A stretch of DNA of 64,000 bases from assembly GCA_000004985.1 (NCBI GenBank), contig GG738873.1. One strand, given 5' to 3'. Made by a program: the position numbers and the translations under genes. The notes under the pieces are model-generated. The model did no database searches and was not told the origin of the DNA. It saw only the letters and a program-made list of their open reading frames with translations. Of the stretch, positions 1 to 32,903 are shown piece by piece. Each line of letters begins with the position of its first letter. The first letter of the stretch is position 1. The stretch is from Naegleria gruberi (taxonomy: Eukaryota).

Positions 1-334
1 AACCCAAACCCAAACCCAAACCCAAACCCAAACCCAAACCCAAACCCAAACCCAAACCCAAACCCAAACCCAAACCCAAACCCAAACCCAAACCCAAACC
101 CAAACCCAAACCCAAACCCAAACCCAAACCCAAACCCAAACCCAAACCCAAACCCAAACCCAAACCCAAACCCAAACCCAAACCCAAACCCAAACCCAAA
201 CCCAAACCCAAACCCAAACCCAAACCCAACCCAAACCCAAACCCAAACCCAAACCCAAACCCAAACCCAAACCCAAACCCAAACCCAAACCCAACCCAAA
301 CCCAAACCCAAACCCAAACCCAAACCCAAACCCA
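1..334. repeat. Telomeric repeat tract (CCCAAA)n, about 55 units with two CCCAA variant units near 228 and 290; C-rich strand reads 5'->3' into the chromosome, as expected for a left chromosome end
   Basis: Perfect 6-bp periodicity 'aaccca' from position 1 to 334, then an abrupt switch to unique AT-rich sequence. Confidence 0.9.
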
Positions 335-7467: not shown

Positions 7468-9225
7468 ATGTTCTCCAATAGGAATGAATCACATGTCGTC
7501 TCGTACACAATAGTGGCCATGTGGATTGCAATGGTGGTGGGATGTTGTGCCTCTCTAGTGATGGCCGCCTCACCTACTGAATTAATTGTTAGTAAGCAGG
7601 CCATTCAATCACAACTTGCAGCTTTGCAAAAACAATTAACGGATGTTAGATTGGCAAAATATACCTTGTCAGGATTGAAGGAAGCAACTGGAATTATTTC
7701 ATCAAATTCCATTTCTGTCAATGGTGTATCATCTTTGGATGTGGATTCCCTTGGAGCAGAAGTTTCTGATCAATATCAAGAATTGGAAAGACATGAAAGA
7801 TCTGTGTTATTGAAAATGGCAGTTGTTCAAAGAAGTCTTGAAGTTATTACTGTCAATATATCCATGTCTGGATATAATCCAATGCTAAAGAGAATTGCTT
7901 CAAACATATATGGAACAACATACATTGCACCAAATGGAAGTTTATTTTATTATGGCGCAATCAATTCTGCTCTTCTAAATGGAAGACCTGGATACGTTTC
8001 TGGTTCATATATTCAAACTTATCCAACTGCTGTTGACATGTCTCCTTTGGGAGGTGATGTTGTAACTCAAGTTTATGGAGGAAGATCATACTTTTATGCG
8101 GTAACCTCTAAGGGAGACGTATGGCATTGGGGAGGAAATGATGGCACCATTGGTTCAATCTGTTCTTGTGGTCCACAGGCATCAGCTGGTTCTTCATATG
8201 TATTGAGAAAACTTGATTTTGGACTTATTGGTAAGGCCGTTATGTCAAAGAAAATTGTTTGTGATCAATCAATTGATAACAACTACGGTCAGTATGGAAC
8301 CTTTGATTGTTTCATGCTTTCAATGGAAGGGGAGCTTTACTTTATGGGTGTGTGGGTTTTCGACGGTAATAGTGGTTGGTCAATTAGATCAACGTACAAT
8401 TCAAACAAGGTCAGAAAGTTAAAGATTCAAATTAATGGTGTTGAAAAATTCGCATCTGACTTGGCTGTATCTCAAACAGCTGTTCCGGCTTATTCTGCTA
8501 TTGCTGGAGGAATTCTTAGAAATGGTGCTGCTATCTGTGTTATTGACAGAGACAATGCAACCAATATTTATTGCACAGGTGATAACAACGGGTAAGTACT
8601 TCTTTTTCAGTATGATTTTAATCATTTATTTAGTGGTCAATTTGGAGATGGTTCAATTGCTCCAACAAATATTCCATTGACTTTGGATATTGCGTCTACA
8701 AGTTGGGTCGTGGCCAAGACGCAAGCATCGTCTTCAGGTGAGATTTTCTCTCAAATTTATGGAGCCTTGAAAACTCTGTATGCTGTTGGTGCTACAGGTA
8801 AGGTTCACTCATGGGGATCAACTGGTACATTGTTGGCAAGAGTTGCTACCGAATCAAATGCCAAGATTGGTAGAACAACCTTCTCCAGCTATTTTTCAGT
8901 CTCAAAGATTTGCACCTCTCCTGCAACAGACATTGTCTTTTTGGTTAGTTCTGCAAATAATGAGGTATATGTTTTGGGAGCTCTGAATGGAGACAATTTT
9001 GACTATCCTTATCAACCACAAGCATTCAAGGGAAAGCAATTTGTTGATTGTGAAGTCAATGAAAATAATGTGTTTGTCCTCTTTGCTAATGGACAAGTAT
9101 ATGCAAAGGGTAGAAATGATGCTGCACACTTAATGGTTGGTTTCACAACACCTTCAGTTACTGGTAATCTAATGGGATTAGTCTACCCATTGACTGAATC
9201 ATTCATTCCTGTATACTATCAATAA
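7468..9225 (+). CDS. Paralog of the secreted RCC1-like propeller protein. Two exons, join(7468..8591, 8634..9225), with a 42-nt intron 'gtaagtacttctttttcag...atttatttag'
   Basis: ATG at 7468 with a hydrophobic N-terminus ('VVSYTIVAMWIAMVVGCCASLVMAAS'). Motifs 'GDVWHWGGNDGTIG', 'IYCTGDNNG|GQFGDGS', 'GKVHSWGSTG', 'GQVYAKGRND'. The donor gtaagt at 8592 and acceptor tag at 8631-8633 restore the frame; exon 2 runs to TAA at 9223-9225. Same architecture as 5355-6959. Confidence 0.7.
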
Positions 9226-9491: not shown

Positions 9492-12082
9492 ATGATTTGG
9501 ACACCACTACGCATCAATTTCACTTCATCATTATCATCATTAAGGAATATGAATACATCAAATATCGGTAATAACAATAGAGGAAAAGGAATACAACTCA
9601 CACTAGCTCTCCTCAGCCTCATTGTTCTATTAACCTTATTATTTTGTAATAACATAATTAGTTGCCAAAAACTTCCTTCCCCAACCGATTACTTTTCCAA
9701 AATTCTGCCAAATGTTCTCAAGGACAATAAGAAAACTCTCTCTGCACAAAGAGCTAAGCGTATTGATGAACTATCAAAACTAGCAACAAATTATTTGGAA
9801 ATGGAAGAAATGTTAGAAATTGAGGAAAAGATGCAAATTTCCCAATCGGCCATTCAAGCAAGAAAGACCAAAATTTTCAATATTGCCACTCTTATCAATA
9901 CATTGACCAATGAAGTTCAATTAATTGATAGTTATTGCGAAAATAGACTTGGACAAAACTGCGAAATTCCAACATGTTTTGGAAAATACAAAGATGGTGT
10001 TCAAGTGGTTTGTGGAGGAAATGGTAAATGTACTGATGTCGACACTTGTCAATGTGATAAGGGATACTCAGGAATTGAATGTACATATTATAAATGTTAT
10101 GGAATAATCTCCTCTGACTCTTCCGTTTGTTCAGGAAATGGAGTTTGTGTTTCATCTGACATTTGTAATTGTAGAAAGGGCTTCTTTGGTGGTAATTGTA
10201 GTCAAACAGAGTTCACTGGATACATTATGTATTCAAATGGTAAGAATAGACTGACTGGTACCAATAGTGTTCCAAAAACATGTAGAGAATATTATCTTAA
10301 TTATAGAGAGATGTGCGGCATGTTAATGTGGTACATCAAACATTATGAATTTCAGCTTTTTTTTTGTGTGTATTAATTCATTTCGAATATTCAGCAACAT
10401 TTCGCATATTCAACAGCATAATAAATGTGCGCACTCCATTTTAAACGAAAAACAAGACTTTAGAATGGAAGAAAAGATTCTGAAATTCAGAATGTATTTT
10501 GCATGAAACCAATGGCCTGAATAAAGATTCTGAATGATGGAACAAAGATAATAAATGAATGCTAAAAGCTTCTGAATGAACGTCTATTCAGATTTCCCCA
10601 ATAGTCAACACCTTTTTCTTTACCTACAACGATGGTAGCATGAAATAACTGGTTTATGTTATTAGGAACCTTAGAAAACATAAGTCAAAGTTTTTAATAA
10701 GTCAAAAATTGATTCAAAAATTATGTGTTTGTTGGACTCGGTCTTTAATTTTTGTTTTACGACACCTCACCACATGAGACTTTAATTAATATATGTAAAC
10801 AGTGATTTCAATATACCATGAAATAATCACAGATTCAGTCCTTTTTGTTGTGGAGATAGAAATCAGCGCTTGAATGAATTTTTTTTAATACTTATTTTTT
10901 CCAGGTAATATTTCATTCTTTTAATAGAACAGCATTATTTCATAACCAGACCATTTTCATTGTTAGAAATTCTGTAATATGGAGCAATACTAAACATTTT
11001 ATGAATTGTGTGATCTTCAAAGCTTTTAATCATTTTTTGGATGACTTTAAAAGCATGGGCTCCGAGTTTAACAAATTTGCCTAGAAAAAGAAAAAGAAAC
11101 TTGACCTAAATAATAGATAAGGTTCCGCTCTTTTTACTATAATGTTTCAATATGTGAATGTTTCATAATGTTTTTATTACATATATTTGATTATATCTGT
11201 GAAATATTAACCTATACCATGCTCTCATTACGATGATGTAAACTGAGCTTCTCGATCCCAGTTTTTTATGTTATTTTTTTGGCGGGGTTTTTTCACTCTT
11301 TAATTCATTGTCCATTAGTTATTTAAATTGAGGTTTTTATGAATCAATCAGATAGATTATGAAGCCAATTAACGCAAATATGTTGATCAGGAAAAATCAG
11401 CTCTTTATTACATTAATTGGATCTCTTTAAAGTCACAGGCTCCATTACTTAAAAAATACCGTTAAATAAGGAGTACAAAGATTTCGCATGGATACACAAA
11501 TAGTTTAGAATAAACCACCAATTTAAAAAAAAATAACATCATTCTAATCTGAACACACAGCAACATCTCGCATATTCAAAAACATTCCGAATATCCAATT
11601 ACACTTCGTATATTCAAAAACATTCCGACTACACAACAACATAAAAAAGTAGGATATCACTCTATAACACTGCATTATCTGGCAATGGATTGTATGTTGT
11701 AAAGCCAAAGGATAGAGAGATTACTGTGTATTGTAATATGAATGATGGAGGTTGGACTCTATTGAATGAAATTTTGTACTTGGAATCTCTCCTTAGCTCT
11801 ATTCCTCTCCCTAGTGCTAGTAATCTTCTCTCTGCTGATTTGACAACTTATACACAAAAACCAATAAGATTGACAAGTGTCATTTCATCCAACTTATTGA
11901 AAGATTTTAAGGGAAGTTTCAATACTGTCAAGGCTGGTTTTGGGTTGAGATGTAGTGTGGGAGCTGATGATCCAACCATGGATCCTGTTCTGAACTATTT
12001 GTGCCAAATCAATAATAGAAATGGATTGAATACTTATGTTGCTGCTACCTTTAGTTCATATGTAAAATATTGGCTTTATTAA
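9492..12082 (+). CDS. Membrane-anchored or secreted protein with a coiled-coil, two or three EGF-like modules, and a C-terminal fibrinogen-related-domain-like segment. Exon 1 is 9492 to about 10312 or 10330. A distal exon at 11653-12082 carries the 'GNGLYVVKP..VYCNMNDGGWTLL' part across an unusually long (about 1.3 kb) intron or insertion
   Basis: Exon 1: 'CEIPTCFGKYKDGVQVVCGGNGKCTDVDTCQCDKGYSGIEC...' then 'KTCREYYLNYRE'. The distal ORF is open from 11645: 'SRISLYNTALSGNGLYVVKPKDREITVYCNMNDGGWTLLNE'. The order TCREY..GNGLY..VYC.M..GGW is contiguous in the paralog at 14360-15340. Phase-compatible donors at 10313 or 10331 with an acceptor at 11651-11652. Confidence 0.4.
10378..10420. repeat. 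Two copies of an about 20-bp motif ACATTYCGMATATTCAAMARC at the 5' edge of the long intron/insertion in gene 9492-12082
   Basis: 'tttcgaatattcagcaac' followed by 'atttcgcatattcaacagc'; related copies at 11559-11640. Confidence 0.5.
11559..11640. repeat. Four tandem copies of the same about 20-bp motif at the 3' edge of the intron/insertion; direct-repeat partner of 10378-10420
   Basis: 'acatctcgcatattcaaaaac' / 'attccgaatatccaattac' / 'acttcgtatattcaaaaac' / 'attccgactacacaacaac'. Confidence 0.5.
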
Positions 12083-12166
12083 AAATCAAGATATTTGCAA
12101 TATTTAAATAACATGAAATATCTAATTGCTAAAAAGCAATAGCTGACCAATACCATATTTATTTTG

Positions 12167-13892
12167 TTACAAATAAAGGAAGGACAAGATGATCAAAACT
12201 AAAACAATTAAAACGTTTGGAAGACGAACCAATTGAGCATCATTGACATTTCTTGAAGTAATAGCATCAGGAGTAGTAGTGGAATTTGAGTTTGTGTTTG
12301 AATTGGAATGAGAAGAAACTGCTGGTTTTGGTGAAGAAGTAACTGGGCTAGGCACTTCAACCTTTAACATTTGAACTGAAACAGTTGATTCCTGATTGAC
12401 TCCACTAATTGCTGAAATACTTCCCCAACAATAAGAAGATGGCCAAGCAAATACGTAACTTTGTCCATTATTCAAATTTCCAGTATCAATATTTGAAAGA
12501 TTTCTACAAGCCAAATTCAAATACAATCTAAACTGTCCTCCTCCAGTAGTAACAGCTGTAATATTATACAATTGACCAGCAACTGTTTTGGCCCATGAAA
12601 CTGGTGTATATCCATTTCCATTTCCATTATTCTGAACTGTTCTCACAGTTCTGTTTGAAAAGACTACTGCTTGTCTCCATGTATCGAAATATCCAGCAGG
12701 TCCTCCAGAACCAACTAACCAAGGACCTCTCATGGAAAGTAAATTCTGATTTCTATTAAAATCAATCAACTTGTCCTCACCATTCAAATATCCTGAACAA
12801 GATTTGAGAGGTCTGAGAGCAGCTCTAATGAGTTGCAATTCGTATGCAGCTTGATTACTCCAACCATTTGGATGCAATGTGTAATTACTTCCAATTTCAA
12901 CGAAAATGGCATAAGGTGTGCCAGTATTACGATCAGTGACATAGGCACCGTAAGTTTTCAAAGTTTCTGCAATTTTTCTCAATTTTGGAATAGTAAGTTG
13001 GGCAGAAACGTTAAATGTGGAAGGAAGCATCAATAAACTACCTTCTGGAATAGATCCATAATTGCTTTGATAATCAATGTCAGATACAGTGGCTGGCCAA
13101 ACGTAAGGTGGATTATTGGACAAACCATTGTGAGTCATGGAAAGAGTCAATGCATGTCTATATTGAGAATCGCCATCATCCACTTCATGTTTTCTAATCA
13201 ATCCTGCAGAACTTGCAACCCCTGTGGCTCTGGCTCCTTGATAGAATTGAGCTGGATTTCCCCATCCAGAACCATCGAGAGCTGTCCATGAATAGAGAGT
13301 AGTACACCATGTTCCATTTACTTTGACTAATTGCCAGAATGAGTGAATAACGTTTGAAATTGGATCAAAAATTTCACAGTGACCTATTTCCAAAAATACC
13401 AAATTTGACACATGTCAAAAAAAACTCATTACTTTGACAAGAATGAAAATAAACTTACCATCACTTCCGCTAGCTGGTAAAGTATTGGCTGGCCATCTTG
13501 GAATTGTAATATTTGGAGCAAATCCACCAATATCTGGTACGCCAATTCCCGAACTAGATGAACCATAAACTGTAAGTGGAGAATCAGTTTTTGAGGAAAC
13601 GAAAACTCCAGTAGAAAAAATTCCTTCGGCGACTGTTGGGACAAAGTTCATTGTTGATATTGGAATAGTTTTGGTATCGTCTAAAACTGGGTTGACTGGA
13701 CGACTATTCCAAGGAGAGCTTGCAGAGAATGGTCTGTAAACGCTTCCAAAGGGATAAGCCGATTGGAGGCATGTTGCATGTTGAGAAAACATGTCTAATG
13801 AGAACAGTGTCAATTGTCAAAGCAAATGAAAACTTACAAATTACTGACAGCAACAGCAGAACAGATAATTTAACTGTGAATTGTTTATTCAT
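12167..13892 (-). CDS. Secreted, probably GPI-anchored protein of unknown domain family. Three exons: join(13838..13892, 13459..13794, 12167..13383) on the minus strand, with a signal peptide, a Ser/Thr-rich stalk and a C-terminal hydrophobic tail
   Basis: Exon 1 'MNKQFTVKLSVLLLLSVI' ends at donor gtaagt (13837-13832). Exon 2 runs from acceptor cattag (ag at 13796-13795) to donor gtaagt (13458-13453). Exon 3 starts after 'aaatag' at 13383 and reads 'GHCEIFDP...'. The C-terminus is '...SSPKPAVSSHSNSNTNSNSTTTPDAITSRNVNDAQLVRLPNVLIVLVLIILSFLYL'. Confidence 0.65.
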
Positions 13893-14359
13893 GGCTGTGT
13901 TTGTTTTTTTTGATGTTTCGTTCTAGTAGGCAAAAAATGGCAGTGGTTTACTGCTGGATAAAATGAAAGTATTTGTTATTCTAGCGACATTGTTTTCGAA
14001 TAGGTCATTTTGAAAGGTTCTGTGTAACACAGTTGATGAATTAGTAGAAGAAAATACAAGTTTAGTTTGGCTGAGGTTTGGAAAAGGAAGTGCAAGCGAA
14101 ATAGGGTCCCAACTGGAAGTTTCGAATAGAAAATTTTAGCTATGCCAATCAAAAATCAACAAAATAGTTTAATACAATGGAACAGCTGTTTCTCAACAAA
14201 CACATTCAGACTGGAAGTCTAACCGTTAAATTTTGTAATGACAATATCATCTACTAATCAATTAAGTCCAAGTGTACCTCGTTCAAGAGAAAGTTTACAA
14301 TACATTTATTTGAAAAGTAATGAAAGCTTGAATTATTTTATTAAGAATGTTCTTAAGGT

Positions 14360-15340
14360 TTATCTGATGAAATATTGGAAGAAACTGACAAATTTACCTG
14401 GAGTGGAAAATCCATCAACGGTACACAACTTTTTCATTGTCCTTTCATGATAATCATCAGGATCATATGAAATTGCACATTCATCACCAACCATTGACTT
14501 GACTTGATTAGCCAACTTGATCAATGATCTAAATTCAATTGATTCCACAAGATCTGGAGTGATAGGGGTAATTGGTTGCTTGAAAGGAGTCTCATGATTT
14601 TGAATTCCATTCAAATAAATCCATCCTCCCTTACTCATATCACAATACACTGGAAATGCTGGGAATTCAGCAGAGGGTTTTACAATATACAATCCATTTC
14701 CTGTCTTTCCAACATAAAAATTGGTCAAATACTCTCTACATGTAGTTGGGATATAGTTCGAAACAGAGGTGAGACTTTTCACAATAGATCCATCATACCA
14801 TTGAGTTTCATTGATTGAGAATAAATTTTCAGAGGCCATTTCCTCAGGTTTACACGACTTTCCAGAATTAAGATCAAAACAAATGCACTTAGTACCTGGT
14901 ACATAGTTAAATTGTGTTTGATCTGCTAATAAATCAGCACCATTTCTTCTCTGAGAAAGTACAGCAATGGAAGATCCGATAATTTGTTGTTTCATCAATA
15001 AATCTTGTTCTTGTCGGATGAGGGAAATTAAATCGCTAGTAGCCTTGTCCATGATGGATTGTAATTGAACCTTATCAATATTTAAATTATCAACATAGGG
15101 AGTAATGATATCGTTTGCATCCCTTAATGCCATCACATTTTGTTTCATAATTCTGATATTATCCAATTGATCATCCAATTTATTCTTATACAATTTCATC
15201 ATTGATAATCTATCTGGTTGATCATTATCTTGAAATATACTACCTTGTCCAAAACAACATGTAACTCCCAACAATGATATAACAATAAAAAGGTAGAGAA
15301 ATTCCACCGAGTGATGATGATGATTGAAGAGTTTGTTCAT
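14360..15340 (-). CDS. Secreted or type II protein with a hydrophobic N-terminal segment, about 120 aa coiled-coil, and a C-terminal domain carrying a fibrinogen-related-domain-like motif. Paralogous in architecture to gene 9492-12082. There may be a 33-nt 3' intron (14365-14397) that would shorten the C-terminus to '...FSTPDKP' (stop at 14353)
   Basis: 'MNKLFNHHHHSVEFLYLFIVISLLGVTCCFG', a heptad-rich segment, then 'TTCREYLTNFYVGKTGNGLYIVKPSAEFPAFPVYCDMSKGGWIYLNG', matching the FReD A-subdomain consensus C..Y..G...SG.Y.IKP....F.VYCDM...GGWTV. Confidence 0.65.
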   Translation of the reverse strand: MNKLFNHHHHSVEFLYLFIVISLLGVTCCFGQGSIFQDNDQPDRLSMMKLYKNKLDDQLDNIRIMKQNVMALRDANDIITPYVDNLNIDKVQLQSIMDKATSDLISLIRQEQDLLMKQQIIGSSIAVLSQRRNGADLLADQTQFNYVPGTKCICFDLNSGKSCKPEEMASENLFSINETQWYDGSIVKSLTSVSNYIPTTCREYLTNFYVGKTGNGLYIVKPSAEFPAFPVYCDMSKGGWIYLNGIQNHETPFKQPITPITPDLVESIEFRSLIKLANQVKSMVGDECAISYDPDDYHERTMKKLCTVDGFSTPGKFVSFFQYFIR

Positions 15341-17927: not shown

Positions 17928-20900
17928 TTATACCCAAGTATTATAGCTTACACCTCTTGTTATAAAATCACCAATATCATCTTCTTCTGCATCCATATTA
18001 AAGTCCTCTGTGGTTGTTGTAGGTGTTGAATCAATTGAAGAGTTGGTGTTAATTTTTTCGAATAAATCTTGTAAAGTGCTATCTCTACTTGTGTTATTAT
18101 CGTAAAATACATATTTTCCAACATTATTTTTCTTTTTTCTTCTAATAAAATACCATCCAACACCAGCTACAAGAGTGGCACAAAACGCTACCACCAAGAG
18201 TAAACCAATTGAGCCACCTACAATGTAAGGTAAATAATCAATTTGAGTGAGTGAGAAGTCTGATTTTGCACAAGTGACACAAACTTCCATCATACTACTC
18301 ACAGTTAATTCAGGAATTTGAGAGATGCCAGAAAGTAATTGAGCGCATGAAAAAGCTTGTCCAATTCCAAATTGATATCCAGTTGGTTTGGCAAGAATTT
18401 TGGAATTATCAGAAACAAAATTAAGACTACAATCAATCATATCAAGATTAATATTTTTCAATTCCCATTTCGTTCCCTTCTCTGTTAATTTCATTGAAAT
18501 TCTGTAAGAAACACCTGAACTGAATAAACAAGAGGCGGATGATTTCATTCCACTTGATAATTCACCTCCTGATAAAACTTGTTTTCCATTTTCAAAAGAT
18601 AATCCACCAAAGAATGTTCCATTATTCTTTTTAGAAATCCAAAATTCAATTAAATTACCATTTTCAATATTTGAGAATGGTGATAATTTAAAATCAAGTG
18701 ATACAATATTACTGATATCATGTAAATCTGATGATGCAACAACTTGTCTAATTGGTTTGTCTGTACATTTTGATTTGTTCAATTTACCAATATTCATTTT
18801 AATGATCAAAGGTGGTTGAACTGTTTCAGTTGTTTCTTGTCTTTGAATGATTGGAGGTGTTGTATCTTGATCTGGAATATCTTCTGGAGGTGAAATACTT
18901 GTATCAAATTTATCCAAAGAAGTAACTTTTACAACTTCTGGATCAACATATCTGATAAATAATTTGGTATCATAATTACTCGAAATTGAATCTTGAATCA
19001 AAGCTGCTCTTATATTCATTATGGAATCACTTGTTCCCAATAATGGAAGTTTAGCTGAACAAAATGTTGAATTGAGAACTGTGCATGCAATTTGAGTTTC
19101 TTCAGTGGAATATTGTTGACGAATGAAAAGATTGACATTATTGGTTGGTGGGAAGAATGTTGCCATTGCAAGAATCCTATCACCAAAATAAGCTTGTTTT
19201 GGTAAAACTTTCAATAAATCAAATCTATACAATGTCAATTCGGTATCGGTTGAAATTGGTATTGGATCTGATGTTTCACTAATTAATTCAATTTGAACTG
19301 AAACTTTAAATGAATCCTTCATTACCAAATCTTGGGGAAAGTTGCTTATCAAATCCTTTGCATTAACGAATGGCTTGAATGTAGTTCTTGTTCTACTTCC
19401 TGAGGTTTGAACTGGTAAACGAGCAAGAATCAAATTAAGAGGATCATATTTGAGAATTAAATAAGGTCTTGTTCCTGGTAAAACATAATTTCCTTCCAAA
19501 TAAATTGGAATTGAACCAGTCACTGGAACATATAATGGATAAATCTTTCTAATAGATAAAACTGTTGCCTCACTTTGATCATTATTAATATAAGCAATAG
19601 GTTGGAATTTTGTTAATTGAGTACTTTGATCAAAAACTGATGAATCTGGAGTTAATTGAGAAACTGCAATAATCAAAGATACATCTGTATTCACATTGGT
19701 CACTGTAATCTTTTCAGTATCTTTCGTGAGAACAACCAAATCATTCTTATTAACAACAAAGTTTGAATCTGAGGCTAATTCATTGAATTCTGGACTTGAT
19801 GAATCAATATCTGGAACAATTGTACTGATAGTTGTTGTTTGTTGATCACTCGATAATAAATATTGATCTGGATGATCATATAAAACAAGTGTAAAATATT
19901 TCTGAGTACTTTGAGGAATGACAATTTCTTTTGGGGTTTCATTTGGTGCTTCAATATTAACTGATACCAATAAACTTGAATTTGAAGTTCCTTCTTTGAA
20001 GAAGGTGAATGTTGTTGTATTGGTTGATGGATTGAAAACTTGATTTCCTTTATCAATATCTGTGAATGAAATTGGTCCCTTATCAAAAACTGATGAAATA
20101 TTTGCTTCCTTACTTGATGTATCAATTTCCAAGATTGTAACATTCGTTGAATTATCTTTCAATGTGATACCAAGTAAATCACCATTTGGATTATCAATAA
20201 TTTTGACAAGACCATATGTTGCATTATCCATTGTATTTATAATTGGAATAATCATTTGAGTTGCATTACTGAACTTGTCAATCTTCCAAATAATTAAAGA
20301 ATTTGGAATCTTACTCTTATATAATAAGGTATCAAAAGTTAAAAATTTGTCACCACTTTCAGTATTTACATCTGTTGTAATAGTGTAATATTTCAATAAA
20401 TTACTATTAGTAACATTGGATGGAATACCTTCTAATAAAGTTGTACTTTGTAATATCAAAGATTTACCACAAACAGTATCCATCAACGATTTTTGTAAAT
20501 AAATGTTAGAATCTATCACTGTGATTTGTTCTGCTGGTACAAATGAACCTTTACACAATTCAGTTGTGGTTTGATATTGACATAATTGACCAGTAAATCC
20601 ATCATGACATTTACACAAGTTACCTTCAATACATTTACCATTTCCTCCACAAACACTTGAATTAATTCCAGGTGTACCAAAACAAACTGGAATGGAGCAA
20701 TTCAATCCAATATAATTCTCCAAACATGAACAAGTATCATTTGAAATACAAATTCCATTTCCAAAACATGTTAAATTAGATGTTTGTTCAACACCAAAAC
20801 AGTACGTTTTAGGAATTGATGGAGCTGTTGGATCATTATTTCCAGAATTAGATGTTGGTGTTGTAGTATTAAGAGTTTCGTTTGGAGTAAAATGATTAGA

Positions 20901-23900
20901 ATCAATTGTTGAATTAGATGCGTTACTTGAACTGGTTGAATTGTTAGAACTCTGAGAAGTATTAGATCCATTATTTGAACTGGTTGAATTGATAGAATTA
21001 TTAAATCCATTATTTGATTCAGTAGTATTGTTGGATGAATTTGAGCTATTGTGTGATAATGTAGAATTGTCAGACATTGAAGTAGTACCATTAACTTGAC
21101 TGGAATTATTGCCTGTTGGTGACGAATCGTCAATTGTACTGTTATTAGAATTATTAGAACTATTGGTATTACTATTTGAACTATTGGATACACTTGGATA
21201 TGAGTTATTCATTGAATTAGAGATGGTTGAATTATTAGTTTGTGAAGAAGTATTATTAGAAACTAGAATTGTACTATTTGAACCATAGTTGGTTTCATTG
21301 GTGGAATTAGAAGTATCATAATTGGAAGTTGAGTTATTCAAGACATTGGAGGAAAGATTTGATGAATTCTGAGAAGTGTTGTTACTATTAGTAAATGTTC
21401 CATTACTTGTATTGATAGTAGTAGAATTAGAAGTAATAGTAGAATAGTTTCCATTAGAATTAGTAATATTACTTGTAGAACTATTTGTAGAAATGTTACT
21501 AAAATTCAAAATATTAGATGAATTATTCGATAGCGATTCAGTTGTGGAATTGGATATCACACTTGATTGATTTGAATGACTACTTCCATTATTGATATTA
21601 CTTGTTGAATTAGTTGTGTCAATAATTGAATTATTACCACTACTTGTTGAATTATTTTGATTAATAGTACCATTTATACCATGATTATCAATAGAGGTAA
21701 TGTTTGATGAGTCAGAGTTGTTCAGCAATGAACTGTTACCATGAGAATTAGTTACATTAAATGTTCCATTACTTGAATTATTGACAGTAGAATTAGAGTT
21801 ATTTCCATTCGAATTAGAATTATTGGTAATGTTGGAAGAATAAATAATGGATCCATTTTGAACACTTGTTTGATTCTTGTTGAGAGTTTCATTAAAAACA
21901 TTGGTTGTGTTTGTAGCTCCATTACTTGTTGAATTATTTTGATTAATAGTACTATTTATACCATGATTATTTGTTGAATTGGAATTATAATTCCAGGTAG
22001 TATTATCATTACTTGAATTATTGAGAGTAGAATTAGTGAAATTAGAATAACTATTCGTTGTAGAACTATTGTAAGAAGAATTAATGGTCGAGTTAGACGT
22101 TGCATTATTGTTTGTGGAATTTTGAATCATTGTGTCATTACTCATTGATGTATAGTTATTAATAGTATTGCTACTATTTACATTAATTAGAGAGTTTGTA
22201 GAATTAATTGTTCCGTTTTGAATTGTTGTGGAGTTATGTCCTTCACTTTCTTGATTAGTATTGTTGGTATTAGTACTATTGGAAGAATAAATAATAGACC
22301 CATTTTGAACACTTGTTTGATTCTGGATGATAGTTTCATTAACAACATTGGTTGTGTTTGTAGAATTAACCGTTGCAGAATCAAGTGATGTATTGGACGA
22401 ACCACTTTGATTCTTAATAGTTTCGTTGTAATTACTCGTCTGATTAAGCGTTGAATTTGTTGAACTTTCGCTTGTGTTATTAAGACTTTCTGAACCAGTT
22501 AAATTTGATACCACCTGAGAAGTGTTTAAACCATCAGTTGATGTTTCATTAATACCAATAGTATAGTTTGAATCTTGAGTGCTATTTTTAAAATTGGTAG
22601 AAGAGGTAACATTCATAACTAGAGTTGAATTGAGTCCACTATTTGATGTATCATTTCTATTGTTTGAAATGGAAGTTTGATTACTTGAAACAGTATTATT
22701 ATTTTCAAGAGTTTGATTATTTGTCATGGCAGTGTTATTTGAAACAGTATTATTAGAACCTAATGTATCTACTATTCCTGTACTATTTGTTTCATTTTTT
22801 CCAAAGATTGTTTGGTTATTTGAAATGTTAGTTTGATTATTCAATGAGGTATTGTTTGATGAACTGATAGAGGTATTACCACCTAATTGATCTGTATTAT
22901 TTTGTAAAGTGCTAGAATTAAAGTTAATGGTGCTATTAGAAATGTTACTGCTATTTGATATAATTCCATTCGAAGAATTTGAATTCAAATATGAGGATGA
23001 ATTATTTTCAAGAGTTTGATTGTTTGTGATAGCAGTGTTATTTGAAACAGTAGTTCTGGATTCTCCTGTGCTATTTGTATCATTGTTTCCACTATCAGAG
23101 AAGGTTTCTGTGTTATTGTTTGAAGAAGTGTCATTTGTTGAATCGCTGCTTGTACAATTAGTAGAGCCAGTAGAGGTTCCTGAAAGTGAACTATTTGATG
23201 ATGTTGTGTTTTGAGAGCCCAATGTTGAATTGTTACTTGCTGTATTAGATACTGTCTGATTATTACTTCCTTCAGAATTTTTGTCCACATCATTGCTACC
23301 CTTACTAATGGAGGATTCATTAGTTTTAACTTGATATATAGCATCATCAAAATAGAGTGTTTTAGGGTTTGGCAATAAAACTGTGTTGATCTTTCTTTCA
23401 ACTGGTTCAATTAATTTATCAGAAGGTGTAAGTATACTTGAACCATCAGCTTGTGAAATAACTATAGCATTATCAGTTTGGTAAACTCTTGTAGAATTTT
23501 TTAAACTCATCTTTGTGTTATTATAATACATAGCTAGTTCAGTATCTGAGGAAGTCCCATTAACTACAACTGAATAGAAGAAAGATCCCTCTTCATTAAC
23601 CACTACAACACTTTCATCAAAACCATCAAAGATAAAGAAGTAAGGAATTGCATTTGGGTTATTTGCTATTTTAAATGATGAAACAGTGTTTGAACCTCCA
23701 GTTAATGATAATTTTTGAATGGTTTGAACTTGTGATTTACTCTCTTCGATAATTGGCATGTAAAATTCTAAAACACCATTCTTTCTAAGAAGAGGAGTAC
23801 CATATCTTATTTGCTCTGGTGTAAAGACACCTGGACAGTATGAATATCTAAATGGTACATTAAAGTCATTTGGGAGATAATAATAAACAATCAATTGATT

Positions 23901-26900
23901 TCCATCCAAAACTAACGCATAGAAGTCTTCTCCACTTGAAAGAATTCTCGATGTGGCGTTATTTGTTGGAATAGTGAGAGTCACATTTACAGGAACAGGG
24001 CTTGTGGGGTTTACAATAAATACATTAGGCACTGGTTCATCAATTAAGGAAGTATCAATAGTGATAATAGCCGTATCATTCATTTTCTGGGTTTTCACTA
24101 ACTTATCGAGAAAAGAATCTGTAGTGCCTGGCATTGGTCTAGAAATAGTCAATTCTGTAAGATTTTGTTTCTTGTAAGTGAAATAGTAGCCGCAAACACT
24201 AATTTTTCTTATAGTTAAAGTTAGTAAAAACTTGCTATTATACTTCTTTTCAAGATTGAGAACAAAATCTTCAAACTGACCATCGGGAGTACATATAACA
24301 CTTCCATTAGAACCAGTAGAGTTGGATGATCCATTTGAGTTGTAATATGTTGTTGTGTTGGAACTTTTTGAATTGTCTACGTAACTCGAATTGTTTGTTG
24401 AGTCAAGATGAATAGGTGTGTTGCCACATGTTGTACAATTAGTTATTGTTGTATTGTCATATGTACAATTAGTAGTTGTGTTGTCAAATGTTGTACAATT
24501 AGTAGTATTATCATTGGCAACAGGAGGAATCTTAATAACATATTTTTCACTATCATAAAAATAGTAGGAAGGAGGTGGCAAGTCTGGTGATTTCTTTTCG
24601 TTGGATGATAGATCACTTGGGGAAATAAATAATATTTGGCTAGTTTGAAATGCATAAACAGTAACGAACTCGTTATAGTAAATACCAATGGATATATCTG
24701 TTTGGAATGCGGTAAGTAAATATCTTTCTGTAGCAAATGAAAAATGTTCCCAAGGCCAAGGGATTGTTGCCAATTTACGTACTTCGAAAATCTGAGATAG
24801 AGAGTAGACATTAATGCCCTTTTCACTGTATGTAATTATTCTTTCCTCTGTACCATTAAAAATTGAGAAATATGGTATTATCTGTGGATCATTGGATATT
24901 GTAAAAAAATCCAATTTTTCATCATATTGATTCAAGGATAGAATAAGAATAGTTTGATTTGATCCTTCCTCGATAATTGGCATGTATACATTGATTGTGC
25001 CGTCACTTCGTACTATAGGTTGTCCGTATCTTATTAGGTCTGGAGTGAACAGTGTATTACTAATTGAGGAAGATTTGTATTTCTGCTTATCTGAGTTAAA
25101 TCTTTCTATTAATAGATTGTTGTCATTCAAATTCAATACAAAATACTGAAGACCGTTGCTTAGTAACCTTAATGATCTTGGAGAGTTTGTTGGACCTCCA
25201 GTGGTTAAATAGTTTTGAAGATGTAATTCTTGTAGAGACCAGATTCCTATTGGAGAAATAGATGAAATGTAAAAGACAGGTTGTGTAGATAGGTCATAAC
25301 TTGCCCATGACTGATCAACGGTAACCAATAGTGAGCCTTTGAATACCTGGTATGTAATGAGCTTATCCTTAAATGACTCATAAGAAACAGGATTGTTTTT
25401 AAATTTGGAAAGTCTTTTTTGCTCTGAGCTACTGGTTTTTTTTGAAGAACTGGTAGTAAAATTAATAACAATAGGTTCCATTGTGTAACTAAGGTCAGCC
25501 TCAAAATTTGTTTTAAGCCCAATATAACCACCCAAAAGGACTACTGTTGTATCTATTATCTGACATGAAACACCATAATATGGTGTCTTACATTTACATT
25601 TTTCCGTAATCTCATCACAATAACCATTTCCACTACAAACCAGAGAACTGTTTCCACTAATTCCCCTGCATGTTACCTCGTAGTCACACTTATCGCCTTT
25701 AAAAAACTTATAACAATTGCAGGTATCGTTTTTCGTGCACGAACCATGGCCACTACAAACTGTTGGATCAGCTGATTCTTTCCCAAAACACATTACAATG
25801 GGTTTGTTGAATATTTCTGACGGGGTGGAATATTTTGGAGAGTATTTCAAACCACCTAATGATCCAATAAATTGCCACAAAAACCCATCCTTGAAATTTC
25901 TTCCAATAGAAGCACTTTGAACTACTTTGTCAACAGTTGCGTTGGCTGAAAGAGTTATATTAGTGGATAAATAGCCTTGGTAGCTATAAACACGAGTCTC
26001 GAAAGTGTCAGTACCGTCCATATTTTGGTTTCTAGTAATCGTTACTTGATATGTACTGTTGACTTTAAGGTTTGGATCCAAAACCATACTTTTTCCTTCT
26101 GCAATAGGTGACAAATCCACAACCAAAAACTTTTCTGAGCTAATGAAAACTTTGAATCGGTTTACATAATCAAAAAGGGTCATAGCAGATTCAAGTGACA
26201 ACGGAGAAAAGTAGAAATTGAATGTAAACTCACCACTAAGTAGCAAGTAAATATTTGGATCCGTAATTGAGCAATACGAGTCTTCAGAAAGGGAAACAGA
26301 GAAGTCATTATCAAGGCCAGGAGTGAGCTTTACATTTTCACAAGGAAAAGAAGCACCAGTAAGTTTGTCAACCAGATACAACTTAACTGGCTCTCCCTTA
26401 TAAGAATCGCTTGCTGAAGAAGGTACGCTAAAATATGAGCTGTGAGCTGGAACTCCGTAATAAATGGCTTGCCCTATTCGAAATGATTCAGATTGGCAGC
26501 TTACATCGTTGAAAAAATCAATAATATTAGAACAAAAAGGACCATCATGCAAGTAACTGTACATAAGTAGAGTCTCCTTAGTATAATCTAATTTGTTGTC
26601 TAACATATCGTAACAATAACCGTCCTGTTTCATATTACAAAAATTACCCACTCTAGATCTTGTCGAGGTTGGTTTACATTCACTATCTGGTGAATCGCCA
26701 GTGTTTTCACATTGGCAAACATCTTGATCAGTACAAGTTCCTTTTCCGCTACACACTCCAGGCTCATCAGCAAAAATACCAAAACATGATTTTTGAGAGC
26801 TAGTCTGTAAAATAAGTGACAACTTTTCAATTTGAACATGTGGCTCTATGACAAACATGCTTGAGTTACTAATGAAATTTACAAACGAATCCAAAGAGGA

Positions 26901-32285: not shown

Positions 32286-32903
32286 ATGGTTGAAGCTACA
32301 TGTTTTGGATTATTGGCCAGCAATCCGAGGGTTTGTTCAGGTAATGGAAATTGTACATATTTAAACTTTTGTGATTGTCAAGACGGTTGGGATGGTAATC
32401 AGTGTCAAGCCTTAACAGCAATTGATATTAGAGAAGTAATGTTTGGATTTTCAATTACTGGTCCAATATTAGCTGTTATTATTTCAATCTTACTGTGCAT
32501 TCCCTTCATTATTTATATTAGGAGAAGGAAGAAGCAAGAGGAAGCAAGGAAATCAGCATCAGCTGCTGCTGGTAGTAATGTAGATACAAATTCCTCTTCC
32601 GATAGAGTGATAAGGTTTAGTGGACGAGGAAAGAGTAATAGTAATGCAGGTGATGATATTCAACGATCGCCCACCCATGCCTATCTTAAACCTCATCCTT
32701 TCACATTGGGTCGATCACACAGTGAGAGAACTGACCGATCTGATGATATACTTATTGGCAAATCAAAAAGTCCTCCTCCTTCAAGCATATCATCATTGGG
32801 AAAGACAAGGAGAGAATTGAGTGGAAGCTTTTCTGAGCCTAAAACACCAAAGAGTCCAAAAGATACTTCCAACATACTGAACGATGAAATGAATCAAGTT
32901 TAA
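32286..32903 (+). CDS. Small single-pass membrane protein: a single EGF-like module, a TM helix and a basic, Ser-rich cytoplasmic tail. It has no signal peptide, so it is possibly a fragment derived from the EGF/TM giant-gene family, or an upstream exon is missing
   Basis: 'MVEATCFGLLASNPRVCSGNGNCTYLNFCDCQDGWDGNQCQ' then TM 'VMFGFSITGPILAVIISILLCIPFIIYI' then 'RRRKKQEEARK...'. The 3' end overlaps the convergent gene 32900-35800 by 4 bp. Confidence 0.4.
   Translation: MVEATCFGLLASNPRVCSGNGNCTYLNFCDCQDGWDGNQCQALTAIDIREVMFGFSITGPILAVIISILLCIPFIIYIRRRKKQEEARKSASAAAGSNVDTNSSSDRVIRFSGRGKSNSNAGDDIQRSPTHAYLKPHPFTLGRSHSERTDRSDDILIGKSKSPPPSSISSLGKTRRELSGSFSEPKTPKSPKDTSNILNDEMNQV

What the first reader, a model, noticed from the sequence alone, without database searches (positions are those of the whole stretch)
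9492..15340. Fibrinogen-related-domain-like motif in two amoebozoan coiled-coil secreted proteins (angiopoietin/ficolin-like layout)
Genes 14360-15340 and 9492-12082 both have a signal or anchor, about 100 aa of coiled-coil, and then 'TCREY...G.GLY(I/V)VKP......VYC(D/N)M..GGW(I/T)(Y/L)LN'. This matches the A-subdomain signature of fibrinogen-related domains (C..Y..G...SG.Y.I.P....F.VYCDM...GGWTV.Q). The canonical downstream 'R.DGS.DF...W..Y..GFG' part is absent, so the domain is either truncated or highly divergent. As far as I know, FReDs are considered largely metazoan, so a clear homolog outside animals would be notable. It could also reflect convergent evolution or horizontal acquisition.
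Basis: inference. Interest (0 to 1): 0.6.

Follow-up and report, generated by a model that had tools for sequence, protein, structure and literature searches.

The report
Fibrinogen-like module in Naegleria proteins
Two neighbouring Naegleria gruberi genes encode secreted or anchored coiled-coil proteins whose C-terminal heads begin with a true homolog of the first ~50 residues of animal fibrinogen-related domains; the rest of that domain is missing, and the short module is already catalogued outside animals, so the finding is real but only mildly surprising.

Summary
The motif is present in both genes as described. The organism is Naegleria gruberi (Heterolobosea), not an amoebozoan.

**The module.**
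- A profile of six Naegleria homologs hits only FReD and intelectin structures in the PDB (best E 1e-6). hhalign to a canonical FReD protein gives 97% probability.
- Every alignment stops after GGW..LN, about 50 residues in.
- NCBIfam's 46-residue model NF040941, 'fibrinogen-like YCDxxxxGGGW domain', is covered end to end. The two window proteins score below its cut-off; two orthologs score above it.

**Not a full FReD.**
- Only 126 residues run from the first Cys to the stop, against a 221-position FReD.
- The last ~85 residues, with two invariant Cys, are found only in Naegleria.
- AlphaFold models were of low confidence (pLDDT 47-51).

**Already catalogued.** The same module occurs, often many times per protein, in a green alga, an amoebozoan, archaea and metagenomes. 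UniRef already names the N. lovaniensis ortholog 'Fibrinogen C-terminal domain-containing protein'.

**Side finding.** Gene B is interrupted by a 1.36-kb insertion with inverted-repeat ends, not by an ordinary intron.

**Best reading.** This is a small, clustered, Naegleria-specific family of oligomeric extracellular proteins with a truncated FReD-like head. Their function is inferred, not shown.

The parts
14360..15340 (-). Gene A: single-exon CDS of 326 aa plus stop. Layout: signal peptide or anchor, helical rod, CxCx8C relic, C-terminal head.
   Evidence: The ORF is. It is 100% identical to an NCBI N. gruberi predicted protein.
15251..15307 (-). Gene A N-terminal hydrophobic segment (aa 12-30), a signal peptide or type II anchor.
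   Evidence: Kyte-Doolittle maximum 2.29 at aa 12-30. AlphaFold helix 6-28.
14909..15211 (-). Gene A helical rod and coiled-coil candidate (aa 44-144).
   Evidence: AlphaFold helices 44-82 and 90-144, with 10-residue block pLDDT about 57-77 over aa 41-120 and lower beyond. Constant heptad register with a/d hydrophobic enrichment over windows 50-133, almost free of Pro and Gly.
14855..14890 (-). Gene A 'KCICFDLNSGKSC' (aa 151-162), a CxCx8C relic that aligns with the C-terminal half of an EGF repeat of the B-type paralogs.
   Evidence: MAFFT alignment A5. The motif is conserved in P0007 and P0010.
14609..14740 (-). Gene A fibrinogen-like YCDxxxxGGGW module (aa 201-244: CREY...GNGLYIVKP...VYCDMSKGGWIYLN), equivalent to the FReD A subdomain plus the first B strand.
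   Evidence: Pfam PF00147 positions 9-58 of 221, 18.3 bits. NCBIfam NF040941 positions 2-44 of 46, 23.2 bits, E 5e-5. PDB hits. hhalign.
14363..14608 (-). Gene A Naegleria-specific C-terminal part of the head (aa 245-326), with two invariant Cys (C288, C306 by the numbering) and a conserved C-terminal (K/Q)Y(W/F)(I/L/M/F)(K/Y/R) tail.
   Evidence: Invariant columns. Only Naegleria proteins cover it. Predicted helical at low confidence.
9492..10304 (+). Gene B, first segment (aa 1-271): hydrophobic segment aa 34-52, heptad helix about aa 78-154, two tenascin/teneurin-type EGF repeats (about aa 153-241), and the start of the module (TCREYYLNY, 10278-10304).
   Evidence: ORF. Pfam EGF_Teneurin 37.4 bits and EGF_2 27.5 bits. 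Heptad and hydropathy analysis.
10305..11665 (.). A 1361-nt interruption of gene B. It consists of a 1357-nt AT-rich insert (10306-11662) plus one copy of a TATA duplication (10302-10305 and 11663-11666). Imperfect terminal inverted repeats: TATAGAGAGATGTGC (10302-10316) and the reverse complement of 11652-11666, TATAGAGTGATATCC. Arrays of a 19-nt repeat lie near both ends (10366-10419 and 11551-11642). No long ORF.
   Evidence: Removing 1361 nt restores a 409-aa ORF with exactly the module spacing of the orthologs. The N. lovaniensis ortholog is a single uninterrupted exon. NCBI annotates only the last 114 aa of B (P0002).
11666..11767 (+). Gene B, rest of the module (NTALSGNGLYVVKPKDREITVYCNMNDGGWTLLN).
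   Evidence: NCBIfam NF040941 positions 10-46 of 46, 23.6 bits, E 3.8e-5. Pfam PF00147 12.8 bits. Motif scan.
11768..12082 (+). Gene B Naegleria-specific C-terminal part of the head, plus stop. It has two conserved Cys and ends in KYWLY.
   Evidence: Alignments. tblastn A against B gives E 2.5e-8 and extends to the C-termini.

Best explanation
Genes A and B are paralogs of a small, clustered, Naegleria-specific family of extracellular proteins.

**Architecture.** Each protein has four parts:
- An N-terminal signal peptide or signal anchor.
- A heptad-patterned alpha-helical rod.
- EGF-type spacers: two tenascin/teneurin-type EGF repeats in B, and a relic half-EGF CxCx8C in A.
- A C-terminal head of about 126-137 aa stabilised by two probable disulfides.

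**The head.**
- Its first ~45-50 residues are a true homolog of the 'fibrinogen-like YCDxxxxGGGW' module. This corresponds to the A subdomain plus the first B strand of animal fibrinogen-related domains. The same module opens fibrillar-collagen C-propeptides and GON domains, and it is widespread in prokaryotes and protists.
- The remaining ~85 residues are a lineage-specific, probably helical extension. They replace the B and P subdomains, so the carbohydrate/Ca2+ pocket of FReD lectins is absent.

**Likely mechanism (inferred).**
- The rod oligomerises the protein.
- Unpaired Cys in the linker may cross-link chains.
- The module acts as a disulfide-locked cap joining the stalk to the head, as it does in fibrinogen, angiopoietins and procollagen.
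- The clustered heads are displayed on the amoeba surface or in its secretions, for multivalent adhesion or recognition of an unknown ligand.

**Gene B in this genome.** It carries a 1.36-kb transposon-like insertion inside the module. It is therefore either inactivated or expressed through cryptic splicing that leaves 7 extra residues.

**Shown versus inferred.**
- Shown: paralogy, module homology, truncation, restriction of the C-terminal part to Naegleria, and the insertion.
- Inferred: secretion, oligomerisation, disulfide pattern and function.
For: **Identity and paralogy**
- Gene A equals an NCBI N. gruberi protein.
- A and B are homologous over the whole head: E 2.5e-8, with 18 invariant columns including four Cys.
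- A's CxCx8C aligns with the end of B's EGF repeat.

**Family and clustering**
- A-type orthologs are found in N. lovaniensis and N. fowleri (P0007, P0010/P0119). B-type orthologs are P0014, P0120 and P0004.
- In N. lovaniensis, the A ortholog, a second A-like gene (6610-7653 of L001, E 2.9e-24) and the B ortholog lie within about 20 kb.

**Module homology**
- Pfam Fibrinogen_C positions 9-58 of 221, E 0.002.
- NF040941 is covered at 2-44 of 46. Orthologs score 30.4 and 34.2 bits, at or above the cut-off of 30.
- The family profile against the PDB gives only FReD or intelectin proteins in the first 58 hits, best E 1e-6.
- hhalign gives 97% probability and E 5e-11 to a protein that has Pfam FReD coverage 4-195 of 221.

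**Truncation and lineage specificity**
- All alignments end at about profile position 60.
- Only Naegleria proteins cover the C-terminal part.

**Rod and hydrophobic N-terminus:**. The B ortholog P0014 has a classical N-terminal signal-like segment.

**Module spread outside animals:**

**Insertion in gene B:**
Against: - The two window proteins themselves score below both curated cut-offs: Pfam 18.3 and 12.8 against 22, and NCBIfam 23.2 and 23.6 against 30.
- AlphaFold models are of low confidence (pLDDT 51 and 47). Foldseek gave no significant match (best E 0.6). The fold of the head, and especially of its C-terminal 85 aa, is therefore unknown.
- No signal-peptide or coiled-coil predictor was available; both rest on hydropathy, a simple heptad count and a monomer model.
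- No expression, localisation or binding data exist here, so the adhesion/recognition role is a guess by analogy.
- Whether B is functional is unresolved.
Confidence: 0.7

Rival explanations
1. The head is a complete but extremely divergent and compacted FReD. On this reading it is a 'mini-FReD' that keeps a B/P-like ligand-binding function, so the proteins are ficolin- or angiopoietin-type lectins.
For: - The module is homologous to the FReD A subdomain.
- A second conserved Cys pair lies near the C-terminus, as in the FReD P subdomain.
- The layout resembles angiopoietin or tenascin.
- Intelectin shows that FReD-like folds can diverge beyond sequence recognition (its hits are).
Against: - Only 82 residues follow GGW..LN, against about 165 in the Pfam model.
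- No alignment extends past profile position 60 in Pfam, PDB-profile or hhalign comparisons.
- None of the FReD hallmarks (DGS.DF...W..Y..GFG, GGWW, NLNG.Y, the Ca2+ site) can be read in the sequence. In A there is no Trp after the GGW of the module.
- The region is predicted helical rather than beta-rich, at low confidence.
Confidence: 0.1
2. The similarity is a short chance or convergent match, with no common ancestry with FReDs.
For: - Single-sequence scores are marginal: Pfam E 0.002, below the gathering score, and PDB phmmer E 0.02.
- The region is only about 45 aa, and all FReD hits are mutually related, so they count as one observation.
- Foldseek was not significant.
Against: - Significance rises sharply once orthologs are added: profile E 1e-6 and hhalign 97%, E 5e-11, 42% identity over 53 columns.
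- Coverage of an independent curated 46-aa model is end to end, with orthologs above its cut-off.
- The Cys pair is spaced 30-32 residues, against 29 in FGL1 as aligned and 29 in the fibrinogen gamma chain. The gamma-chain figure (Cys153-Cys182) is from general knowledge and was not checked here.
- The predicted helix plus three strands is in the right order.
Confidence: 0.05
3. The module reached the Naegleria lineage by horizontal transfer, from bacteria or archaea or from an animal, and was fused to a resident coiled-coil/EGF protein. It was not inherited vertically from an early eukaryote. This concerns origin and is compatible with the best explanation.
For: - The distribution is patchy.
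- The module is abundant in prokaryotes and metagenomes, and NCBIfam treats it as a bacterial domain.
- Outside Naegleria, no protein shares more than the module.
Against: - The module is also present in other eukaryotic supergroups: Chlorophyta, Amoebozoa and Metazoa.
- No close donor was seen. The best non-Naegleria matches are only about 35-50% identical over 24-37% of the 139-aa query, roughly 35-50 aa.
- About 45 aa are too few for a reliable tree, and none was attempted.
Confidence: 0.15

Closest known systems
NCBIfam NF040941 'GGGWT_bact': fibrinogen-like YCDxxxxGGGW domain (46 aa)
   Same: - The whole 46-position model is covered by the Naegleria sequences: C..Y...G.Y.I.P....VYCDM..GGW.
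- Two orthologs score above the curated cut-off.
- As in these proteins, only this short module resembles fibrinogen, and what follows it differs.
   Different: - The model was built for bacteria and archaea. There the module precedes domains such as LamG-like ones (P0124) or is repeated many times (P0013).
- Here there is one copy per protein, at the end of a coiled-coil/EGF stalk, followed by a Naegleria-only 85-aa extension.
- The window proteins score 23.2 and 23.6 bits, below the cut-off of 30.
Animal fibrinogen-related domains (Pfam PF00147): fibrinogen beta/gamma, FGL1, angiopoietins, ficolins, tenascins
   Same: - The A-subdomain sequence signature and the Cys pair.
- The position of the module at the C-terminal end of an oligomerising stalk.
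- For gene B, the order heptad region, tenascin-type EGF repeats, fibrinogen-like head recalls tenascin.
   Different: - The B and P subdomains (about 165 of 221 positions), the Ca2+ site and the ligand pocket are missing.
- Scores are below the Pfam gathering threshold.
- There are no FN3 repeats and no collagen stalk.
Fibrillar collagen C-propeptide (Pfam PF01410 COLFI) and GON domain (PF08685)
   Same: Both start with the same module. Non-Naegleria hits to my profile match COLFI positions 31-70 and GON positions 2-38. Foldseek's second-best, non-significant matches were procollagen C-propeptides over 42 residues.
   Different: No COLFI or GON hit for A or B at E up to 10, and no similarity beyond the module.
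UniRef 'Fibrinogen C-terminal domain-containing protein' A0AA88H8Q0 (N. lovaniensis C9374_003930)
   Same: It is the direct ortholog of gene A: P0007, 295 aa, with the same architecture.
   Different: That name is an automatic label. The N. gruberi protein itself is only 'predicted protein', and no study of the family was found.

Membership tests
Fibrinogen-related domain (Pfam PF00147 Fibrinogen_C) | Score at or above the Pfam gathering threshold (22 bits). | tested here: not met
   A scores 18.3 bits (E 0.002) and B exon 2 scores 12.8 bits. Orthologs score 17.6-21.8 bits.
Fibrinogen-related domain (Pfam PF00147 Fibrinogen_C) | A domain of about 220 aa with A, B and P subdomains. | tested here: not met
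   Only 126 aa run from the first Cys to the stop in A. Pfam covers positions 9-58 of 221. PDB-profile and hhalign alignments end at about GGW..LN.
Fibrinogen-related domain (Pfam PF00147 Fibrinogen_C) | A-subdomain signature (C..Y..G.Y.I.P...VYCDM..GGW) with its Cys pair. | tested here: met
   The sequence was read directly. Profile against PDB gives E 1e-6. hhalign gives 97% with the Cys aligned. The disulfide itself is inferred.
Fibrinogen-related domain (Pfam PF00147 Fibrinogen_C) | P-subdomain ligand/Ca2+ site motifs (GGWW, NLNG.Y, DGS.DF...GFG). | tested here: not met
   None can be read in A aa 245-326 or in B after GGWTLLN (sequences).
Fibrinogen-related domain (Pfam PF00147 Fibrinogen_C) | FReD three-dimensional fold. 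| tested here: inconclusive
   AlphaFold pLDDT is 51 and 47. Foldseek against the PDB gives best E 0.6, with FGL1 and procollagen on top over about 42-54 columns only.
NCBIfam NF040941 fibrinogen-like YCDxxxxGGGW domain | End-to-end match to the 46-position model. | tested here: met
   A covers 2-44 of 46 and B exon 2 covers 10-46 of 46 (the rest lies in exon 1). Orthologs cover 1-46 of 46.
NCBIfam NF040941 fibrinogen-like YCDxxxxGGGW domain | Score at or above the curated cut-off (30 bits). | tested here: inconclusive
   A scores 23.2 and B 23.6, both below. Orthologs P0007 at 30.4 and P0010 at 34.2 are at or above, while P0004 at 25.5 and P0014 at 25.0 are below.
Tenascin | Heptad region, tenascin-type EGF repeats, FN3 repeats and a complete C-terminal FReD. 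| tested here: not met
   B has a heptad helix, EGF_Teneurin/EGF_TEN hits and the module, but no FN3 and no complete FReD. The resemblance is in layout only.
Fibrillar collagen C-propeptide (PF01410) / GON (PF08685) | A Pfam match. | tested here: not met
   No hit for A or B at E up to 10.

The most novel reading that the evidence does not exclude
The Naegleria head could be a minimal 'proto-FReD': a stalk-capping A module plus a small independent ligand-binding unit, mounted on a coiled-coil/EGF stalk. That would reflect an ancient pre-metazoan architecture from which the angiopoietin, tenascin, fibrinogen and procollagen C-terminal heads were later elaborated. On this reading it would be neither a recent truncation nor a domain shuffle. 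Studying it would show what the A module does on its own.
Probability: 0.1. Interest if true: 0.6.

Novelty: new variant of a known kind. Interest (0 to 1): 0.3.

Why it matters
**For annotation.** 'FReD outside animals' needs qualifying.
- What is widespread outside animals is a ~46-aa disulfide-locked module, not the lectin domain.
- Annotating such proteins as 'fibrinogen C-terminal domain-containing' overstates what can be inferred about ligand binding.

**For Naegleria biology.** The family is a candidate set of oligomeric surface or secreted proteins. It has orthologs in the pathogen N. fowleri.

**For genome biology.** The insertion in gene B is a clean example of a mobile element landing inside a coding module. 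It may have become an intron.

None of this opens a long-standing question.

Tried and rejected
- **First homolog search.** The word-indexed search with gene A found only the protein itself. With the six-sequence alignment it returned only P0002 and prokaryotic or metagenomic module proteins, not the Naegleria orthologs. The exhaustive HMMER search was needed to find those.
- **Gene B models.**
  - Four candidate models (the ORF alone and three GT..AG splice variants) are not in the protein collection.
- **Structure.**
  - AlphaFold on the head (8-row alignment) and on full-length A both gave low confidence.
- **C-terminal 85 aa.** I looked for similarity to the regions downstream of the module in other hits. 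Only low-quality extensions appeared, with no conserved Cys.
- **More copies.** No further copies of the motif or of the 1.36-kb insert exist elsewhere in the window.
- **Intervening gene (12167-13892).** It has no Pfam or PDB match and no homolog in the two N. lovaniensis loci.
- **Literature.** Searches for FReDs in Naegleria or in non-metazoans found nothing relevant. Doolittle et al. 2012 is not held.
- **Ordinary-intron reading of the gap in gene B.** I rejected it because of the inverted-repeat ends, the TATA duplication, the exact restoration of ortholog spacing on removal, and the intronless ortholog.

Full report
**What is there**

The window is from Naegleria gruberi. The 326-aa ORF at 14360-15340 (-) is 100% identical to an NCBI 'predicted protein [Naegleria gruberi]'. 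The 'amoebozoan' label is therefore wrong: Naegleria is a heterolobosean (Discoba).

The window begins with 56 copies of AACCCA, followed by about 4 kb at 14-17% GC. The two genes thus lie about 9-15 kb from what looks like a chromosome end.

Gene A reads ...TCREYLTNFYVGKTGNGLYIVKPSAEFPAFPVYCDMSKGGWIYLNG.... Gene B (9492-12082, +) reads ...TCREYYLNY and, 1.36 kb further on...SGNGLYVVKPKDREITVYCNMNDGGWTLLNE.

**The similarity between A and B is not limited to the motif**
- tblastn of A against the window aligns aa 199-325 with the end of B at E 2.5e-8.
- With four orthologs added, 18 columns are invariant. They include four Cys and a conserved C-terminal (K/Q)Y(W/F)(I/L/M/F)(K/Y/R) tail.
- A's 'KCICFDLNSGKSC' aligns with the C-terminal half of an EGF repeat of the B type. 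A and B are therefore paralogs along their whole length, and A has lost most of its EGF region.

**Architecture**
- Each protein has a single N-terminal hydrophobic segment: A aa 12-30, B aa 34-52. The N. lovaniensis B ortholog has a classical signal-like N-terminus.
- In A, AlphaFold places long helices at 44-82 and 90-144. Their N-terminal two-thirds are the only part of the model with moderate confidence. A simple heptad count shows one register held over about aa 50-133.
- In B the heptad signal is strongest at aa 106-154.
- B then has two EGF repeats of the tenascin/teneurin type: EGF_Teneurin 37.4 bits and EGF_2 27.5 bits.
- 'Signal or anchor plus about 100 aa of coiled coil' is a fair description. 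No dedicated predictor was available.

**Is the motif fibrinogen-like by homology?**

Single-sequence evidence is marginal.
- Pfam Fibrinogen_C is the only hit to this region, at 18.3 bits (E 0.002, cut-off 22), covering positions 9-58 of 221.
- PDB phmmer lists almost only FReDs, at E 0.02-0.7.

Evidence becomes solid once the family is used.
- The exhaustive profile search found Naegleria orthologs of both types: P0007 and P0010/P0119 for A, and P0004, P0014 and P0120 for B. They come from N. lovaniensis, N. fowleri and one ENA contig.
- A six-sequence profile hits FGL1 and fibrinogen beta at E 1e-6. The first 58 PDB hits are all FReD proteins or intelectin.
- hhalign of that profile against P0100 gives 97% probability, E 5e-11, and 53 columns at 42% identity, with 'PTTCREY' aligned on 'PTSCRAL'. 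P0100 has Pfam FReD coverage of 4-195 of 221 at E 1.5e-12.
- NCBIfam holds a 46-position model, NF040941 'fibrinogen-like YCDxxxxGGGW domain'. The Naegleria proteins cover it end to end: A 23.2 bits, B 23.6, P0007 30.4 and P0010 34.2, against a cut-off of 30.

I conclude that the first ~45-50 residues of the head are homologous to the FReD A subdomain plus the first B strand.

**Is it a FReD?**

No.
- Every alignment stops just after GGW..LN.
- Only 126 residues run from the first Cys to the stop codon of A.
- No FReD hallmark of the B or P subdomains can be read in the sequence.
- The remaining ~85 residues are conserved among Naegleria species, with invariant G, C, L, C and Y positions. They are found in nothing else among 1.84 billion representative proteins.
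- AlphaFold predicts a helix plus three strands for the module and helices for the rest, but at pLDDT 51 for the head and 47 for the full length.
- Foldseek found nothing significant. FGL1 and procollagen C-propeptides came on top over about 42-54 columns.

The fold of the C-terminal part remains unknown.

**Is a FReD-like sequence outside animals notable?**

Not for this module.
- The same search returned 118 representative proteins at E 1e-3 or better. Most match only profile positions of about 18-60, often in 3-17 copies spaced about 200-260 aa apart.
- Pfam sees these as Fibrinogen_C positions 2-47, COLFI 31-70 or GON 2-38.
- Named sources include the green alga Pyramimonas parkeae, the amoebozoan Phalansterium solitarium and a Nanoarchaeia MAG. 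NCBI already labels that MAG protein 'fibrinogen-like YCDxxxxGGGW domain-containing protein'.
- UniRef already calls the N. lovaniensis ortholog of gene A 'Fibrinogen C-terminal domain-containing protein'.
- I found no paper on the subject.

**Genomic context**
- In N. lovaniensis the A ortholog, a second A-like gene (E 2.9e-24) and the B ortholog lie within about 20 kb, next to RCC1-like genes as in this window.
- The family is therefore small, clustered and, as far as can be seen, restricted to the genus.

**Gene B is interrupted**
- The 1.36 kb between the two halves of its module has imperfect inverted ends, TATAGAGAGATGTGC and TATAGAGTGATATCC (12 of 15 matching).
- It is flanked by a TATA duplication, carries arrays of a 19-nt repeat near both ends, and has no long ORF.
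- Deleting 1361 nt restores a 409-aa ORF in which the Cys-to-GNGLY spacing equals that of the orthologs.
- The N. lovaniensis ortholog is a single exon.
- NCBI annotates only the last 114 aa of B (P0002).
- The insert therefore looks like a non-autonomous DNA transposon rather than an old intron.
- A GT at 10313 and an AG at 11651-11652 would allow splicing that leaves seven extra in-frame residues (REMISLY). Whether B is dead or 'intronised' cannot be decided here.

**How it most likely works**

Shown:
- A paralogous, clustered family.
- A hydrophobic N-terminus, a helical heptad rod and EGF spacers.
- A two-Cys-pair head whose first third is the fibrinogen-like module.

Inferred:
- The proteins enter the secretory pathway.
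- The rod oligomerises them.
- The module serves as the disulfide-locked junction between stalk and head, as in fibrinogen, angiopoietins, ficolins and procollagen.
- The Naegleria-specific part of the head provides whatever binding specificity exists, giving a multivalent surface or secreted adhesion/recognition protein.

The FReD lectin pocket is absent, so no ligand can be transferred by homology.

**Verdict**

This is a truncated, lineage-specific variant built on a known and widely distributed module. It is not a FReD and not a first non-animal occurrence. Interest is modest.

Noticed in passing
window 1-334, and 335 to about 4000: There are 56 tandem copies of AACCCA at the very start of the window (98% matches). 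About 4 kb of 14-17% GC sequence follows. This looks like a telomere plus subtelomere, so the gene pair would be subtelomeric.
   Followed up: partly
window 10305-11665: A 1.36-kb insert sits inside the coding sequence of gene B. It has imperfect terminal inverted repeats, a flanking TATA duplication, arrays of a 19-nt repeat near both ends (10366-10419, 11551-11642) and no long ORF. It is probably a non-autonomous DNA transposon, and cryptic GT..AG sites would leave an in-frame 7-aa remnant. There is no second copy in the window. The rest of the genome could not be searched.
   Followed up: partly
window 12167-13892 (-): The gene between A and B has at least three exons. It has a signal-like start (MNKQFTVKLSVLLLLSV), a Ser/Thr/Asn-rich stretch and a C-terminal hydrophobic tail, which looks like a GPI or TM anchor. 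It has no Pfam or PDB match and no homolog in the syntenic N. lovaniensis loci.
   Followed up: partly
window 20500-26800, 32300-32400 and 52100-63500: There are dozens of tenascin/teneurin-type EGF repeat matches to the EGF region of gene B, mostly on the minus strand. They indicate several very large EGF-repeat genes. N. lovaniensis has a 3506-aa EGF protein between its A and B orthologs.
   Followed up: no
window 50001-52000: An AT-rich island of 13.6% GC, with 25% GC in the preceding 2 kb and no tandem repeats detected, lies just upstream of the large EGF-repeat region.
   Followed up: no
L001 6610-7653 (-) (N. lovaniensis PYSW02000001.1): A 347-aa gene next to the A ortholog is a second A-like paralog: tblastn with A aa 112-326 gives E 2.9e-24. 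The family therefore has at least three clustered members in that species.
   Followed up: partly
window 8677-9225 (+) and L001 2883-6492: An RCC1-repeat-like ORF lies just upstream of gene B. RCC1/WD40_RLD genes also flank the family cluster in N. lovaniensis, which suggests partly conserved synteny despite rearrangement. The window ORF was judged by eye only.
   Followed up: no
proteins P0003, P0005, P0006, P0011, P0013 (not in the window): Giant metagenomic and protist proteins carry 3-17 copies of the fibrinogen-like module. In some the copies are spaced about 200-260 aa apart, followed by unassigned sequence. In P0013 they form back-to-back 40-aa units. Pfam sees only Fibrinogen_C positions 2-47 in these proteins, so there may be undescribed domain families sharing this cap.
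   Followed up: partly
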